DNA from: Escherichia coli
GTDB lineage: Bacteria; Pseudomonadota; Gammaproteobacteria; Enterobacterales; Enterobacteriaceae
DNA: 64,000 nucleotides
Assembly: GCF_003334315.1 (NCBI RefSeq)
Contig: NZ_QOWR01000015.1
Reading direction: 5' to 3' (one strand)
In this document: positions 15,001 through 36,000 of the stretch, piece by piece
Layout of the letters: every line of letters begins with the position of its first letter
Numbering within the stretch: the first letter of the stretch is position 1
Made by a program: the position numbers

Positions 15001-18000
15001 ATTTCCAGAGGCCAAAAGGATAGGATATGTCCGTTTTCTCATTGAAGATTGATATCGCCGATAACAAATTTTTCAACGGCGAAACATCACCGCTCTTTTC
15101 GCAAAGCCAGGCCAAACTGGCGCGCCAGTTCCACCAGAAAATAGCTGGTTATCGCCCAACACCGCTTTGTGCGCTGGACGATCTCGCAAACCTTTTTGGT
15201 GTGAAGAAAATTCTCGTCAAAGACGAATCAAAACGATTCGGTCTGAACGCCTTCAAAATGCTTGGCGGTGCGTACGCCATCGCTCAATTATTGTGTGAAA
15301 AATATCATCTTGATATCGAAACGCTGTCATTTGAGCACCTGAAAAATGCCATCAGCGAAAAAATGACTTTCGCGACCACCACCGACGGCAACCACGGGCG
15401 CGGTGTGGCGTGGGCAGCACAGCAACTCGGACAGAATGCGGTGATTTACATGCCGAAAGGTTCTGCTCAGGAACGCGTTGACGCCATTCTGAACCTCGGT
15501 GCCGAGTGCATCGTCACGGATATGAACTATGACGATACCGTTCGCCTGACCATGCAACACGCGCAGCAGCACGGCTGGGAAGTGGTACAGGACACGGCAT
15601 GGGAAGGTTACACCAAAATCCCAACCTGGATCATGCAAGGCTACGCAACCCTGGCAGATGAAGCCGTCGAGCAAATGCGTGAAATGGGCGTAACCCCGAC
15701 GCACGTTCTGCTGCAAGCCGGTGTCGGAGCAATGGCCGGTGGTGTGCTGGGTTATCTGGTCGACGTCTATAGCCCGCAAAATCTGCACAGCATTATTGTT
15801 GAACCTGACAAAGCTGACTGTATTTATCGCTCCGGCGTCAAAGGCGACATCGTCAACGTTGGCGGTGATATGGCCACCATCATGGCAGGCCTGGCCTGTG
15901 GCGAACCTAACCCGCTGGGCTGGGAAATCCTACGTAACTGCGCCACCCAATTCATCTCCTGCCAGGACAGCGTTGCCGCATTAGGTATGCGCGTGCTGGG
16001 TAATCCGTACGGCAACGACCCGCGCATCATCTCCGGTGAATCCGGCGCTGTCGGTTTGGGCGTTCTCGCAGCGGTTCATTATCACCCGCAACGTCAAAGC
16101 CTGATGGAAAAACTGGCGCTGAACAAAGATGCCGTGGTGCTGGTTATCAGCACTGAAGGCGACACCGACGTGAAGCACTACCGCGAAGTTGTCTGGGAAG
16201 GCAAACACGCTGTAGCACCTTAATCACCCTATTGGAACTGCTCCCTGCAAAACGGGGAGTAAAAAATCTGGAGAAAAATAATGGCTAAGAATATTCCATT
16301 CAAACTGATTCTTGAAAAAGCAAAAGATTACCAGGCGGATATGACTCGCTTCCTGCGCGACATGGTTGCTATTCCCAGTGAAAGCTGCGACGAGAAACGC
16401 GTAGTACATCGTATTAAAGAAGAGATGGAAAAAGTCGGCTTCGATAAAGTTGAAATCGACCCGATGGGCAACGTTCTCGGTTATATCGGCCACGGCCCGC
16501 GTCTGGTGGCAATGGACGCTCATATCGATACCGTCGGCATTGGCAACATCAAAAACTGGGACTTCGATCCGTACGAAGGCATGGAAACTGATGAACTGAT
16601 TGGTGGTCGCGGTACTTCCGACCAGGAAGGTGGCATGGCCTCTATGGTTTATGCCGGTAAAATCATTAAAGACCTCGGTCTGGAAGATGAATATACCCTG
16701 CTGGTTACCGGTACGGTGCAGGAAGAAGACTGCGACGGTCTGTGCTGGCAGTACATTATTGAACAATCCGGCATTCGCCCGGAATTTGTGGTCAGTACCG
16801 AACCAACCGACTGCCAGGTATACCGTGGTCAGCGCGGTCGTATGGAAATTCGTATTGATGTTCAGGGTGTTAGCTGCCACGGTTCTGCACCAGAACGCGG
16901 TGATAACGCCATTTTCAAAATGGGTCCGATTCTTGGCGAATTACAAGAACTCTCCCAACGTCTGGGTTATGACGAATTCCTCGGCAAAGGCACCCTCACC
17001 GTTTCTGAAATCTTCTTCACATCCCCAAGCCGTTGCGCTGTAGCAGACAGCTGCGCAGTTTCAATCGACCGTCGTCTGACCTGGGGCGAAACCTGGGAAG
17101 GCGCGCTGGACGAAATCCGCGCCCTGCCTGCAGTACAGAAAGCTAACGCGGTTGTTTCTATGTACAACTACGACCGTCCGTCCTGGACTGGCCTGGTTTA
17201 CCCAACCGAATGCTACTTCCCGACCTGGAAAGTGGAAGAAGATCACTTCACCGTTAAAGCACTGGTGAATGCCTACGAAGGGCTGTTTGGCAAAGCGCCG
17301 GTTGTTGATAAGTGGACCTTCTCAACTAACGGCGTATCTATCATGGGCCGTCACGGCATTCCGGTGATCGGCTTTGGCCCGGGTAAAGAACCTGAAGCGC
17401 ATGCACCTAACGAAAAAACCTGGAAATCTCACCTGGTGACCTGTGCCGCGATGTACGCTGCAATCCCGTTAAGCTGGCTGGCAACAGAGTAATTACTCTT
17501 CACTTATTCCCCTCCGGTTCGCCGGAGGGTTTTTGGAGTTTGCTATGCGCGTATTGATCAAAAACGGCACTGTCGTTAACGCAGATGGACAAGCCAAACA
17601 GGATTTGCTGATTGAAAGCGGGATTGTTCGCCAGTTGGGCAACAATATTTCGCCGCAGCTCCCGTATGAAGAAATTGATGCCACTGGCTGTTACGTTTTC
17701 CCTGGCGGCGTGGATGTCCATACGCATTTCAATATTGATGTCGGCATCGCGCGCAGTTGTGATGATTTTTTTACCGGTACCCGCGCAGCTGCGTGTGGCG
17801 GTACAACAACCATTATTGACCATATGGGATTTGGCCCAAACGGCTGTCGGTTACGCCATCAACTGGAGGTTTATCGTGGTTATGCCGCCCATAAAGCGGT
17901 CATCGATTACAGCTTTCACGGTGTGATCCAGCACATTAATCACGCAATCCTCGACGAAATCCCGATGATGGTCGAGGAAGGACTGAGCAGTTTTAAACTC

Positions 18001-33000: not shown

Positions 33001-36000
33001 GATTGCCATCGCTGGGATTCGCATCATCATCACCAACGGATTAAAGCGGCGTGAAACACTTATTGTCGCCACTTCTTTAGGTTTAGGGCTTGGCGTCTCC
33101 TACGATCCCGAAATTTTTAAAATATTGCCAGCCTCTATTTATGTATTAGTTGAAAACCCTATTTGTGCTGGCGGGTTAACTGCGATTTTATTAAATATTA
33201 TCCTCCCTGGTGGCTACCGACAGGAAAACGTTCTGCCTGGTATTACCTCAGCGGAAGAGATGGATTAACAGTAAAGGAGTCAATGATGTCAGGAGAACAC
33301 ACGTTAAAAGCGGTACGAGGCAGTTTTATTGATGTCACCCGTACGGTCGATAACCCGGAAGAGATTGCCTCTGCGCTGCGGTTTATTGAGGATGGTTTAT
33401 TACTCATTAAACAGGGAAAAGTGGAATGGTTTGGCGAATGGGAAAACGGAAAGCATCAAATTCCTGACACCATTCGCGTGCGCGACTATCGCGGCAAACT
33501 GATAGTACCGGGCTTTGTCGATACACATATCCATTATCCGCAAAGTGAAATGGTGGGGGCCTATGGTGAGCAATTGCTGGAGTGGTTGAATAAACACACC
33601 TTCCCTACTGAACGGCGTTATGAGGATTTAGAGTACGCCCGCGAAATGTCGGCGTTCTTCATCAAGCAGCTTTTACGTAACGGAACCACCACGGCGCTGG
33701 TGTTTGGCACTGTTCATCCGCAATCCGTTGATGCGCTGTTTGAAGCCGCCAGTCATATCAATATGCGTATGATTGCCGGTAAGGTGATGATGGACCGTAA
33801 CGCACCGGATTATCTGCTCGACACTGCCGAAAGCAGCTATCACCAAAGCAAAGAACTGATTGAACGCTGGCACAAAAATGGTCGTCTGCTATATGCGATT
33901 ACGCCACGCTTCGCCCCGACCTCATCTCCTGAACAGATGGCGATGGCGCAACGCCTGAAAGAAGAATATCCGGATACGTGGGTACATACCCATCTCTGTG
34001 AAAACAAAGATGAAATTGCCTGGGTGAAATCGCTTTATCCTGACCATGATGGTTATCTGGATGTTTACCATCAGTACGGCCTGACCGGTAAAAACTGTGT
34101 CTTTGCTCACTGCGTCCATCTCGAAGAAAAAGAGTGGGATCGTCTCAGCGAAACCAAATCCAGCATTGCTTTCTGTCCGACCTCCAACCTTTACCTCGGC
34201 AGCGGCTTATTCAACTTGAAAAAAGCATGGCAGAAGAAAGTTAAAGTGGGCATGGGAACGGATATCGGTGCCGGAACCACTTTCAACATGCTGCAAACGC
34301 TGAACGAAGCCTACAAAGTATTGCAATTACAAGGCTATCGCCTCTCGGCATATGAAGCGTTTTACCTGGCCACGCTCGGCGGAGCGAAATCTCTGGGCCT
34401 TGACGATTTGATTGGCAACTTTTTACCTGGCAAAGAGGCTGATTTCGTGGTGATGGAACCCACCGCCACTCCGCTACAGCAGCTGCGCTATGACAACTCT
34501 GTTTCTTTAGTCGACAAATTGTTCGTGATGATGACGTTGGGCGATGACCGTTCGATCTACCGCACCTACGTTGATGGTCGTCTGGTGTACGAACGCAACT
34601 AATAATAAAACTTTAACATCCTCGTGAGGACATCATTATGTCTGGAGACATCCTACAAACACCGGACGCACCAAAGCCACAGGGCGCGCTGGATAATTAT
34701 TTTAAAATTACCGCTCGTGGCAGTACCGTTCGTCAGGAAGTACTGGCTGGCTTAACGACCTTTCTGGCCATGGTTTATTCCGTTATCGTCGTTCCGGGAA
34801 TGCTGGGCAAAGCAGGTTTTCCTCCCGCAGCTGTGTTTGTTGCCACCTGTCTGGTCGCGGGCTTCGGCTCGTTGCTGATGGGATTATGGGCTAATTTGCC
34901 AATGGCGATTGGTTGCGCGATTTCCTTGACGGCGTTTACCGCATTCAGTCTGGTACTCGGGCAACAAATTAGCGTTCCTGTCGCACTGGGCGCGGTATTT
35001 CTGATGGGCGTCATCTTCACCGCCATTTCCGTAACCGGTGTGCGTACCTGGATCTTACGTAATTTGCCGATGGGTATCGCTCACGGTACAGGTATCGGTA
35101 TCGGGCTGTTTCTGCTGCTGATTGCTGCTAACGGTGTGGGTATGGTTATCAAAAACCCGATTGAAGGCTTGCCAGTTGCGCTCGGTGCGTTTACCTCCTT
35201 CCCGGTGATGATGAGCTTGCTGGGGCTGGCGGTCATCTTCGGCCTAGAGAAGTGTCGCGTACCCGGCGGGATCTTGTTGGTGATTATTGCAATTTCGATC
35301 ATCGGCTTAATCTTTGACCCAGCGGTGAAATACCACGGTCTGGTGGCGATGCCAAGCCTGACTGGCGAAGATGGTAAGTCTCTGATTTTCAGCCTCGATA
35401 TTATGGGTGCACTCCAGCCAACTGTACTTCCGAGTGTACTGGCATTGGTGATGACCGCAGTGTTCGACGCTACTGGCACCATCCGTGCCGTCGCCGGTCA
35501 GGCGAATTTGTTGGATAAAGACAACCAGATCATCAACGGCGGCAAAGCCCTGACCAGTGACTCAGTAAGTTCAATATTCTCCGGCCTGGTGGGCGCAGCG
35601 CCCGCAGCGGTTTATATCGAATCAGCGGCAGGAACCGCCGCCGGGGGTAAAACAGGTTTAACCGCAACCGTAGTGGGGGCGTTATTCCTGCTGATTCTGT
35701 TCTTATCACCGCTGTCATTTTTGATCCCTGGTTACGCCACTGCACCCGCTCTGATGTACGTAGGTTTGCTGATGTTAAGTAACGTCTCGAAGCTGGATTT
35801 CAATGATTTTATTGACGCTATGGCTGGCCTGGTGTGTGCCGTGTTCATCGTTCTGACTTGTAATATCGTTACCGGTATTATGCTGGGCTTTGTGACACTG
35901 GTCGTAGGCCGCGTCTTTGCACGCGAATGGCAAAAGCTGAATATTGGTACGGTGATCATTACTGCCGCACTGGTCGCATTTTACGCGGGTGGTTGGGCAA

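What the first reader, a model, noticed from the sequence alone, without database searches (positions are those of the whole stretch)
17545..34602. Three amidohydrolase-superfamily enzymes with HxH metal sites in one locus
hyuA (GGVDVHTHF), ssnA (CSHNHFY) and guaD (DTHIHYPQ) are dispersed across the cluster. Guanine deaminase has an obvious role, but the substrates of the hydantoinase-like and SsnA-like enzymes are not obvious, and they may act on ring-opened or ring-reduced purine intermediates.
Basis: inference. Interest (0 to 1): 0.4.

Follow-up and report, generated by a model that had tools for sequence, protein, structure and literature searches.

The report
Three purine-breakdown hydrolases of E. 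coli
The three metal-dependent hydrolase genes are real, but they are the known E. coli genes hyuA, ssnA and guaD. [quoted passage not shown]

Summary
The window is the E. coli chromosome at the xdh–yge–ygf purine locus, 100% identical to several complete genomes.

- **Observation:** It is exact. hyuA (17545-18930), ssnA (26678-28006) and guaD (33286-34602) are the only amidohydrolase-superfamily ORFs in the 64 kb. Each quoted HxH motif is the true first metal-binding motif.
- **Relationship:** The three are ancient, very divergent paralogues lying in three apparent transcription units. HyuA has the two-metal, carboxylated-lysine site of hydantoinases and dihydropyrimidinases. SsnA and GuaD share the one-metal deaminase site (HxH, HxxE, His, Asp).
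- **Substrates:** They are no longer unknown. Liu et al. (Nat Microbiol 2025) and Li et al. (Life Metab 2025) reconstituted the pathway with E. coli proteins. It runs uric acid → 2,8-dioxopurine (XdhD-YgfM) → dihydro form (YgfK) → 5-ureidomethylhydantoin (SsnA) → 2,3-diureidopropionate (HyuA) → diaminopropionate → pyruvate. GuaD, whose structure is solved (6OHB), feeds guanine in through xanthine.
The suggestion of ring-reduced or ring-opened purine intermediates was right.
- **What I add:** SsnA is structurally a deaminase-clade enzyme, not a PydB-type one. This fits a ring-opening hydrolysis of an amidine carbon (C4). No SsnA structure is solved.

Novelty: already known. Interest: low.

The parts
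17545..18930 (+). hyuA (ygeZ), 461 aa. D-hydantoinase/dihydropyrimidinase-type cyclic amidohydrolase. Opens 5-ureidomethylhydantoin (and 5-ureidodihydrouracil) to 2,3-diureidopropionate.
   Evidence: RefSeq annotation. TIGR02033 at 675 bits. PF01979. Best PDB match 1YNY, 1e-109 and about 41% identity. Ligands H59, H61, K151, H182, H239, D313 align to H58, H60, K150, H183, H239, D315 of 1YNY. Activity taken from the literature.
26678..28006 (+). ssnA (ygfL), 442 aa. Deaminase-clade amidohydrolase. Hydrolytically opens the pyrimidine ring of dihydro-2,8-dioxopurine.
   Evidence: TIGR03314 at 738 bits and NF005540 at 710 bits. PF01979. H62, H64, H227, E230, H264, D312 are invariant or near-invariant in 74-128 homologues of 31-52% identity. 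AlphaFold2 model pLDDT 97.4. The Foldseek top 50 are all deaminase/chlorohydrolase/guanine deaminase/HutF structures. Its start lies 2 bp after the ygfK stop. Activity taken from the literature.
33286..34602 (+). guaD, 438 aa. Guanine deaminase (guanine to xanthine plus NH3).
   Evidence: NF006679 at 739 bits and TIGR02967 at 634 bits. All but one residue identical to the solved E. coli guanine deaminase 6OHB/6OHC. Ligands H81, H83, H236, E239, H275, D326.
13779..17492 (+). ygeW (13779-14969, carbamoyltransferase), ygeX/dpaL (15027-16223, diaminopropionate ammonia-lyase) and ygeY (16281-17492, M20 hydrolase). These are the downstream steps of the same pathway and lie upstream of hyuA on the same strand.
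   Evidence: literature.
18978..19910 (+). yqeA/arcC-like carbamate kinase. Makes ATP from the carbamoyl phosphate released by YgeW.
   Evidence: TIGR00746 at 386 bits; Liu et al.. A terminator-like hairpin follows at 20097-20122.
20131..23255 (.). yqeB (20131-21756, minus strand), yqeC (21804-22574, minus strand) and mocA (22677-23255, plus strand). Selenium/molybdenum cofactor maturation genes for the Mo hydroxylases of the locus.
   Evidence: RefSeq annotation; Liu et al. use YqeB/YqeC as markers of the selenium cofactor trait.
23577..26675 (+). ygfK. NAD(P)H-dependent 2,8-dioxopurine reductase, which makes the SsnA substrate.
   Evidence: TIGR03315 at 1775 bits; literature.
28057..31703 (+). 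ygfM (28057-28836, FAD subunit) and xdhD (28833-31703, Mo/Fe-S subunit). Together they reduce uric acid to 2,8-dioxopurine.
   Evidence: TIGR03312 and TIGR03313; Li et al.. A terminator-like hairpin follows at 31713-31728.
31868..36005 (+). The xanQ (31868-33268) - guaD - ghxQ (34638-36005) unit. Xanthine and guanine/hypoxanthine transporters flank guaD.
   Evidence: RefSeq annotation. Gaps of 17 and 35 bp between the genes. Terminator-like hairpin at 36011-36034.
7823..13303 (.). xdhABC (7823-11485, plus strand; xanthine dehydrogenase, xanthine to uric acid) and ygeV (11525-13303, minus strand; sigma-54 activator).
   Evidence: RefSeq annotation; Li et al. mutant data for xdhA.

Best explanation
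**What is there.** The locus is the E. coli anaerobic purine and uric-acid degradation cluster, known as the 2,8-dioxopurine or 'reductive' pathway. Its three amidohydrolase-superfamily enzymes catalyse three different C-N hydrolyses on one route.

1. **GuaD** is a one-zinc deaminase. It removes the exocyclic amino group of guanine to give xanthine. XdhABC then oxidises xanthine to uric acid.
2. **XdhD-YgfM** reduces uric acid to 2,8-dioxopurine, and **YgfK** reduces that to an unstable dihydro compound.
3. **SsnA** has the same one-metal HxH/HxxE/His/Asp site as the deaminases. It adds water at purine C4, an amidine-type carbon, and expels ring nitrogen N3. This opens the six-membered ring to give 5-ureidomethylhydantoin. 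Expulsion of N9 gives the minor product 5-ureidodihydrouracil.
4. **HyuA** is a two-metal, carboxylated-lysine cyclic amidohydrolase. It opens either product to give 2,3-diureidopropionate.
5. **YgeW/YqeA, YgeY and YgeX** convert that to diaminopropionate, ATP, ammonia and pyruvate.

**Shown by tools here:** gene identities, family memberships, active-site ligand sets, the structural class of SsnA, and conserved linkage in distant organisms.

**Shown in the literature:** the substrates and products.

**My inference only:** the description of the SsnA step as deaminase-like attack on amidine carbon C4. I derived it from the two published products and from the active-site type.
For: **Identity of the locus.**
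- The finding's span (17545-34602) is 100% identical to several complete E. coli genomes, with full annotation; the rest of the window matches one of them at 99.0-99.98%.
- Every pathway protein passes its NCBIfam cut-off.

**Active-site types.**
- HyuA carries the full carboxylated-lysine two-metal ligand set by alignment to 1YNY.
- A profile built from SsnA homologues aligns to GuaD end to end (E = 3e-35), with HxH, HxxE, His and Asp in register. It aligns to HyuA only in the N-terminal 60 residues.
- The SsnA ligands are invariant or near-invariant in homologues of 31-52% identity.
- The SsnA model has pLDDT 97.4. All of its best 50 PDB neighbours belong to the deaminase/chlorohydrolase/guanine deaminase/HutF group, and none is a dihydropyrimidinase.

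**Conserved linkage in distant metagenomic contigs**.
- L005: ygeW-ygeY-xdh-ssnA, with hyuA at the contig end.
- L007: ygfK-ssnA-ygeY.
- L009: xdhABC-like, then a DHO_dh/Fer4 reductase, then ssnA, then a PLP enzyme.

**Biochemistry.**
- Purified E. coli YgfK, SsnA and HyuA convert 2,8-dioxopurine stepwise to 2,3-diureidopropionate, and the full reconstitution gives pyruvate (Liu et al.).
- YgfK plus SsnA give ureidomethylhydantoin (major) and 5-ureidodihydrouracil (minor), and C. difficile HyuA cleaves both (Li et al.).
- An independent commentary summarises both studies.
Against: - The structures of the YgfK product (UA-3) and of the SsnA product (UA-4) are called provisional by Liu et al.. 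Li et al., however, matched the SsnA product to a commercial standard.
- Li et al. assayed the C. difficile HyuA, not the E. coli enzyme. Only Liu et al. used E. coli HyuA.
- The role of GuaD as a feeder of this pathway is inferred from standard purine catabolism and from gene position. Neither paper tested it: 'guaD' and 'guanine' are absent from Liu et al., and Li et al. mention guanine only in their introduction.
- guaD was not found next to ssnA in any of the distant contigs I examined.
- Two of the six distant SsnA homologues I looked up lie in non-purine contexts (L006, L008). A third contig (L004) was too short to judge. Not every family member need have this function.
Confidence: 0.92

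Rival explanations
1. SsnA is a conventional deaminase acting on an aminated purine, pterin or triazine-like heterocycle, as its database name 'putative aminohydrolase' suggests. It would be only loosely connected to uric-acid breakdown.
For: Its nearest families and structures are all deaminases or chlorohydrolases: N-ethylammeline chlorohydrolase, 5'-deoxyadenosine deaminase, 8-oxoguanine deaminase, guanine deaminase. It keeps the complete HxH/HxxE/His/Asp deaminase signature.
Against: It reaches the cut-off of no deaminase equivalog; the best is 156 bits against 609. Identity to any solved deaminase is at most 23%. It is translationally abutted to ygfK and linked to xdh/ygeW/ygeY/hyuA in distant organisms. 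Two laboratories showed ring opening of reduced 2,8-dioxopurine with purified enzyme.
Confidence: 0.04
2. HyuA is a general D-phenylhydantoinase that scavenges exogenous 5-substituted hydantoins. Its position near purine genes would be incidental.
For: RefSeq names it D-phenylhydantoinase. That name comes from in vitro activity on aryl-hydantoins (Kim et al. 2000, J Bacteriol 182:7021). I know of this work only through the citation seen; the paper itself is not held.
Against: hyuA lies between ygeY and yqeA on the same strand, with gaps of 52 and 47 bp. A hyuA homologue lies beside ygeW-ygeY-xdh-ssnA in a distant contig (L005). E. coli HyuA converts the SsnA product to 2,3-diureidopropionate in the reconstituted pathway. 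Phenylhydantoin is not a known natural E. coli nutrient (my own knowledge).
Confidence: 0.03
3. The three genes are together by chance or by local gene duplication, without any functional link.
For: With 25-30 superfamily genes per genome, three fall within 17 kb in 7-12% of random placements. guaD is in a separate unit from the other two and is not conserved next to ssnA elsewhere.
Against: Pairwise similarity is only 23-28 bits, so there has been no recent duplication. All three act on purine-derived substrates, and transporters for xanthine, guanine/hypoxanthine and urate lie in the same locus. The SsnA and HyuA steps are consecutive in a reconstituted pathway.
Confidence: 0.02
4. The cluster is a selenium-metabolism or selenate-reductase system, as several family names imply ('selenium metabolism protein SsnA', 'putative selenate reductase YgfK').
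For: The NCBIfam names of TIGR03314, TIGR03315 and TIGR03526, and the neighbouring yqeB/yqeC selenium cofactor genes.
Against: Selenate was neither required for nor stimulatory to YgfK activity (Liu et al.). The selenium link is explained by the selenium-dependent molybdenum hydroxylase of the pathway (abstract).
Confidence: 0.01

Closest known systems
The 2,8-dioxopurine (reductive uric acid) degradation gene cluster of E. coli and gut anaerobes (Liu et al., Nat Microbiol 2025; Li et al., Life Metab 2025)
   Same: This is that cluster. It has the same species, genes and order: ygeW-ygeX-ygeY-hyuA-yqeA, yqeBC, mocA and ygfK-ssnA-ygfM-xdhD. The assayed proteins came from E. coli MG1655.
   Different: Nothing of substance. 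The window strain is not K-12: the finding's span is 100% identical to other complete E. coli genomes. guaD, xanQ and ghxQ are adjacent E. coli additions that the two papers do not treat as part of the pathway.
D-hydantoinase / dihydropyrimidinase (PydB) family, for example Bacillus D-hydantoinase 1YNY (TIGR02033)
   Same: HyuA has the same fold and about 41% identity. It carries the full two-metal ligand set with the carboxylated lysine (H59, H61, K151, H182, H239, D313) and the conserved Tyr156 and Ser286. The chemistry is also the same: hydrolysis of the cyclic ureide amide bond in five- or six-membered rings.
   Different: Its physiological substrate is a purine-derived 5-ureidomethylhydantoin, not dihydrouracil or dihydrothymine. 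Residues aligned with the hydrophobic substrate-gate positions of 1YNY differ (F65 to V66, F152 to Y153, F159 to Y158).
Deaminase/chlorohydrolase clade of the amidohydrolase superfamily (guanine deaminase, MTA/SAH deaminase, isocytosine and 8-oxoguanine deaminase, AtzA/TrzN, HutF)
   Same: SsnA shares the fold (TM about 0.8), the one-metal HxH / HxxE / His / Asp site and the overall length. GuaD is a bona fide member, with a solved structure (6OHB).
   Different: SsnA cleaves a ring C-N bond of a reduced purine, opening the ring, instead of releasing ammonia or chloride from an exocyclic position (literature). It has its own invariant residues: Y66, W91, W92, D95, D124-H125-H126, E155, R159, E172, H200, H225, D234, N290, N293. 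It is at most 23% identical to any solved structure.
Reductive pyrimidine (Pyd) pathway: PydA reductase, PydB dihydropyrimidinase, PydC
   Same: The logic is the same: reduce the C5=C6 bond to break aromaticity, then hydrolyse the ring, then remove the carbamoyl groups. Li et al. draw this analogy explicitly.
   Different: The enzyme that opens the six-membered ring here (SsnA) is not a PydB homologue. It belongs to the deaminase clade. The true PydB homologue of the locus is HyuA, which acts one step later, on the hydantoin.

Membership tests
Amidohydrolase superfamily (Pfam Amidohydro_1, PF01979) | Significant match to the family profile over the barrel domain | tested here: met
   HyuA 5e-19, SsnA 3e-56, GuaD 1e-79.
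Amidohydrolase superfamily (Pfam Amidohydro_1, PF01979) | HxH on the first strand, plus His, His and Asp ligands on later strands | tested here: met
   HyuA: H59, H61, H182, H239, D313. SsnA: H62, H64, H227, H264, D312. GuaD: H81, H83, H236, H275, D326.
D-hydantoinase/dihydropyrimidinase (TIGR02033): HyuA | Whole-protein score above the curated cut-off | tested here: met
   675.5 bits against a cut-off of 393.
D-hydantoinase/dihydropyrimidinase (TIGR02033): HyuA | Bridging (carboxylated) lysine of the two-metal centre | tested here: met
   K151 aligns with K150 of 1YNY. The carboxylation itself cannot be tested from sequence.
D-hydantoinase/dihydropyrimidinase (TIGR02033): HyuA | Hydrolysis of a five- or six-membered cyclic ureide | not testable with these tools
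   Taken from the literature: E. coli HyuA converts the SsnA product to 2,3-diureidopropionate. C. difficile HyuA cleaves ureidomethylhydantoin and 5-ureidodihydrouracil.
SsnA family (TIGR03314 / NF005540 / IPR017700) | Whole-protein score above the curated cut-off | tested here: met
   737.9 bits against 455.5, and 709.6 against 444.
SsnA family (TIGR03314 / NF005540 / IPR017700) | Genomic linkage to the 2,8-dioxopurine reductase (ygfK or a PydA-like reductase) and to an Xdh-type Mo hydroxylase | tested here: met
   In the window the ygfK stop (26675) is 2 bp from the ssnA start, and xdhD is downstream. In distant contigs, L005, L007 and L009 show the linkage, L006 and L008 do not, and L004 is too short to judge.
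Deaminase-type (one-metal, HxxE) subgroup of amidohydrolases: SsnA and GuaD | HxxE motif after strand 5 and absence of the bridging lysine | tested here: met
   SsnA H227-A-A-E230 and GuaD H236-L-C-E239 are aligned in register. E230 is invariant.
Deaminase-type (one-metal, HxxE) subgroup of amidohydrolases: SsnA and GuaD | Release of ammonia (or halide) from an exocyclic position | not testable with these tools
   This is met for GuaD by established knowledge. For SsnA the literature reports ring opening instead. SsnA therefore works with the machinery of this group but is not a deaminase in the strict sense.
Guanine deaminase (TIGR02967 / NF006679): GuaD | Score above the cut-off and identity to a characterised enzyme | tested here: met
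   633.6 bits against 375.4, and 739.4 against 351. 437 of 438 residues are identical to E. coli guanine deaminase 6OHB/6OHC.
2,8-dioxopurine pathway gene cluster | [quoted passage not shown] | tested here: met
   All are present, and each is above its NCBIfam cut-off.

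The most novel reading that the evidence does not exclude
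SsnA may be a 'ring-opening deaminase'. It would use the one-metal HxH/HxxE machinery of guanine-deaminase-like enzymes to hydrolyse an endocyclic amidine carbon (purine C4) of the unstable dihydro-2,8-dioxopurine. Partitioning between the N3 and N9 leaving groups would explain the major and minor products. The family-specific invariant residues (Y66, W91/W92, D95, D124-H125-H126, E155, R159, E172, H200, H225, D234, N290/N293) would form a pocket dedicated to that labile intermediate, which is possibly handed over directly from YgfK. No SsnA structure exists in the PDB copy searched, and neither paper, as far as I read them, frames the chemistry this way.
Probability: 0.5. Interest if true: 0.3.

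Novelty: already known. Interest (0 to 1): 0.1.

Why it matters
The pathway matters for gut elimination of urate, for gout and for engineered probiotics. That significance has already been established and published. The value of this check is twofold. It also marks what remains open:
- the structure and catalytic mechanism of SsnA;
- the exact structure of its unstable substrate;
- the disputed order in which YgeW and YgeY remove the two ureido groups;
- whether guaD is functionally coupled to the pathway.

Tried and rejected
- **Recent duplication.** I tested this by pairwise BLASTP and rejected it. Scores are 23-28 bits, at the N-terminus only.
- **A fourth superfamily member in the window.** None was found among 126 ORFs.
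- **Close SsnA homologues** (search for homologous proteins). All 120 listed hits were Enterobacterales-like sequences (73-100% identical), so they were useless for conservation analysis. I used the 50%-clustered library instead.
- **Context look-ups for six distant SsnA homologues.** Three were informative and supportive (L005, L007, L009). One contig was too short (L004). Two lay in unrelated contexts (L006, L008).
- **Large collection scans.** I did not run the genome contigs or metagenome scans, because Li et al. already published a neighbourhood network for the family.
- **Rfam scan of the window.** Nothing was found inside the finding's span.
- **Sigma-70 promoter scan.** The count was not above shuffles (18 against 19.1), so it is uninformative.
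- **The original phenylhydantoinase paper** (PMID 11092864 / PMC94829). It is not held in the library.
- **The 'selenate reductase / selenium metabolism' reading** of the family names. I rejected it on the published YgfK assay.

Full report
**What the window is.** The finding's span (17545-34602) is 100% identical to several complete E. coli chromosomes. At least 80% of it is present in 5149 of 5426 complete E. coli genomes. The RefSeq annotation of one identical genome (window coordinate = locus coordinate + 1544) gives this gene order:
- xdhABC, ygeV (sigma-54 activator, opposite strand), ygeW, dpaL/ygeX, ygeY, hyuA, arcC/yqeA;
- yqeB and yqeC (opposite strand), mocA;
- ygfK, ssnA, ygfM, xdhD;
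- xanQ, guaD, ghxQ;
- ygfS and ygfT (opposite strand), uacT.

The rest of the window is ordinary E. coli backbone: ETT2 type III secretion remnants upstream, and idi through ssrS downstream.

**Checking the observation.**
- The span runs from the hyuA ATG to the guaD stop. The three quoted peptides sit where claimed: HyuA residues 54-62, SsnA 60-66, GuaD 79-86.
- All three proteins match Pfam Amidohydro_1. Each passes the curated NCBIfam cut-off of its own family: D-hydantoinase/dihydropyrimidinase TIGR02033, SsnA TIGR03314/NF005540, and guanine deaminase NF006679/TIGR02967.
- A profile and phmmer scan of all 126 ORFs of at least 100 aa finds these three superfamily members and no others.
- The HxH motifs are the genuine first-strand metal ligands, not chance HxH triplets. 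Each protein has a second, irrelevant-looking HxH, but in SsnA and GuaD its second His is in fact the strand-5 ligand.

**How the three relate to each other.** They are very distant paralogues. Pairwise BLASTP finds only 23-28 bits, around the N-terminal sandwich and the HxH strand. Recent duplication is therefore excluded. They fall into two mechanistic classes.
- HyuA aligns over its whole length with solved D-hydantoinases (1YNY, 1e-109, about 41% identity). It keeps H59, H61, K151, H182, H239 and D313, which is the two-metal centre with the bridging (carboxylated) lysine, as well as the conserved Tyr156 and Ser286.
- I built a profile from 128 diverse SsnA homologues. It aligns with GuaD end to end (E = 3e-35) with four elements in register: HxH, HxxE (SsnA H227/E230, GuaD H236/E239), the strand-6 His (H264/H275) and the strand-8 Asp (D312/D326). 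It matches HyuA only in the first 60 residues or so.
- These SsnA residues are invariant or nearly so in homologues of 31-52% identity.
- An AlphaFold2 model of SsnA (pLDDT 97.4) has as its best 50 PDB neighbours only adenosine/MTA deaminases, isocytosine deaminase, AtzA/TrzN, guanine deaminases and HutF. The TM-score is about 0.8 and identity is at most 23%.
- No SsnA structure is solved. GuaD itself is solved (6OHB/6OHC, one residue different).

**What the enzymes do.** This is no longer open. Two independent 2025 studies characterised exactly this E. coli cluster.
- Li et al. (Life Metab 2025, PMC12507026) showed that XdhD-YgfM reduces uric acid to 2,8-dioxopurine. They showed that YgfK plus SsnA with NAD(P)H convert it to ureidomethylhydantoin (major) and 5-ureidodihydrouracil (minor), both matched to commercial standards. 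They also showed that HyuA (the C. difficile orthologue in their assays) cleaves both to 2,3-diureidopropionate.
- Liu et al. (preprint 10.1101/2025.04.24.650524, published as Nat Microbiol 2025;10:2291) purified E. coli YgfK, SsnA, HyuA, YgeW, YgeY, YgeX and YqeA. With sequential addition they obtained each next intermediate, ending in pyruvate at about 50% yield. [quoted passage not shown]
- A commentary (PMC12990295) summarises both.
- A 2013 bioinformatic paper had already linked hyuA, ssnA, ygeW, ygeY, yqeA and xdh as a putative purine route (PMC4016543).

**Mechanistic reading (my inference).**
- Mapping the atoms of the two SsnA products back onto the purine shows that both arise from water attack on purine C4. 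Loss of N3 gives the ureidomethylhydantoin. Loss of N9 gives the 5-ureidodihydrouracil.
- After YgfK saturates C5-C6, C4 is an amidine-type carbon. Its hydrolysis is chemically the reaction that guanine, cytosine and adenosine deaminases perform, except that the leaving nitrogen is part of the ring.
- This fits the deaminase-type active site and fold of SsnA shown above.
- It refines the description of SsnA by Li et al. as 'related to PydB'. The PydB (dihydropyrimidinase) homologue in the locus is HyuA, which acts one step later on the cyclic ureide amide bond.
- GuaD performs the classical exocyclic version of the same chemistry on guanine. It supplies xanthine, which XdhABC oxidises to uric acid; Li et al. 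give mutant data for xdhA and xdhD.
- The feeder role of GuaD is inferred. Neither paper tested it.

**Independent context check.** I looked up six SsnA homologues of 32-46% identity.
- Three lie in recognisable uricolytic clusters: L005 has ygeW-ygeY-xdh-ssnA with hyuA at the contig end; L007 has ygfK-ssnA-ygeY; L009 has xdhABC-like genes, then a DHO_dh/Fer4 reductase, then ssnA, then a PLP enzyme.
- One contig was too short to judge (L004).
- Two are in unrelated neighbourhoods (L006, L008).
- guaD was next to none of them.
- So the ssnA-hyuA link is ancient, whereas guaD is a local E. coli neighbour.

**Organisation in the window.** Gene spacing and terminator-like hairpins after yqeA, xdhD and ghxQ suggest three units, each carrying one of the three enzymes:
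[quoted passage not shown] - xanQ-guaD-ghxQ.

Chance co-location of three superfamily genes within 17 kb would occur in 1-12% of random genomes, depending on the assumed family size of 15-30, which is my estimate. Common function is the better explanation.

**Verdict.** What is left open is enzymological detail: the SsnA structure and mechanism, the identity of the unstable YgfK product (called provisional by Liu et al.), the YgeW/YgeY regiochemistry on which the two papers disagree, and the physiological coupling of guaD.

Noticed in passing
window 17510-17529 (+): A strong terminator-like hairpin (CCCTCCGG-TTCG-CCGGAGGG followed by TTTTTGG) sits in the 52-bp gap between the ygeY stop (17492) and the hyuA ATG (17545). 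It lies immediately before the hyuA Shine-Dalgarno sequence GGAG. It may attenuate or split transcription between ygeWXY and hyuA-yqeA.
   Followed up: partly
window 7752-7767, 13673-13688, 23489-23504 (+): Sigma-54-like -24/-12 elements (GG-N10-GC) lie roughly 70-105 nt upstream of the start codons of three genes: xdhA (TGGCGTAAATCTTGCC), ygeW (TGGCACACTTATTGTT) and ygfK (TGGTGCGATTGTTGCT). They lie near the sigma-54 activator gene ygeV. None lies upstream of xanQ-guaD. The window-wide count of such sites is not above chance (8 against 6.8 expected), so this is only a lead.
   Followed up: partly
window 13779-17492 (ygeW, ygeY): The two 2025 papers disagree on regiochemistry. Li et al. have YgeW removing the 2-ureido group, giving albizziin. 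Liu et al. have it removing the 3-ureido group, giving 3-amino-2-ureidopropanoate. YgeY takes the other group in each scheme.
   Followed up: no
window 1-208 and about 3926-3934: The window starts inside the end of an IS1 copy. A reference strain that is otherwise about 99.9% identical carries an IS1 at a different place, inside the sctQ pseudogene of the ETT2 type III secretion remnant. That insertion is absent from the window. IS1 positions therefore differ between strains.
   Followed up: partly
window 26678-28006 (SsnA residues): Besides the metal ligands, the SsnA family has a set of invariant or near-invariant residues with no assigned role: Y66, W91, W92, D95, D124-H125-H126, E155, R159, E172, H200, T204, H225, D234, N290, N293, D370, H390. 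They are candidates for binding the labile substrate.
   Followed up: partly
L006 10001-11335; L008 10001-11302: Two SsnA-family homologues (32% and 40-41% identical, each scoring above 250 bits with phmmer) lie in contigs with no purine-catabolic neighbours. One is next to a DUF401 gene, the other next to a phosphoribosyltransferase. The family may include members with another role.
   Followed up: no
window 33283-33288: guaD has tandem ATG codons (ATGATG). RefSeq starts at the second (438 aa), whereas the solved-structure chain 6OHB has 439 residues. This is a trivial start-codon ambiguity.
   Followed up: yes
window 49911-49988 (+), 63498-63681 (+), 6504-6574 (-): The Rfam hits all lie outside the finding: naRNA4 (a REP-derived nucleoid-associated RNA), 6S RNA (ssrS) and a tRNA, which the reference genome annotates as tRNA-Gly.
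   Followed up: no
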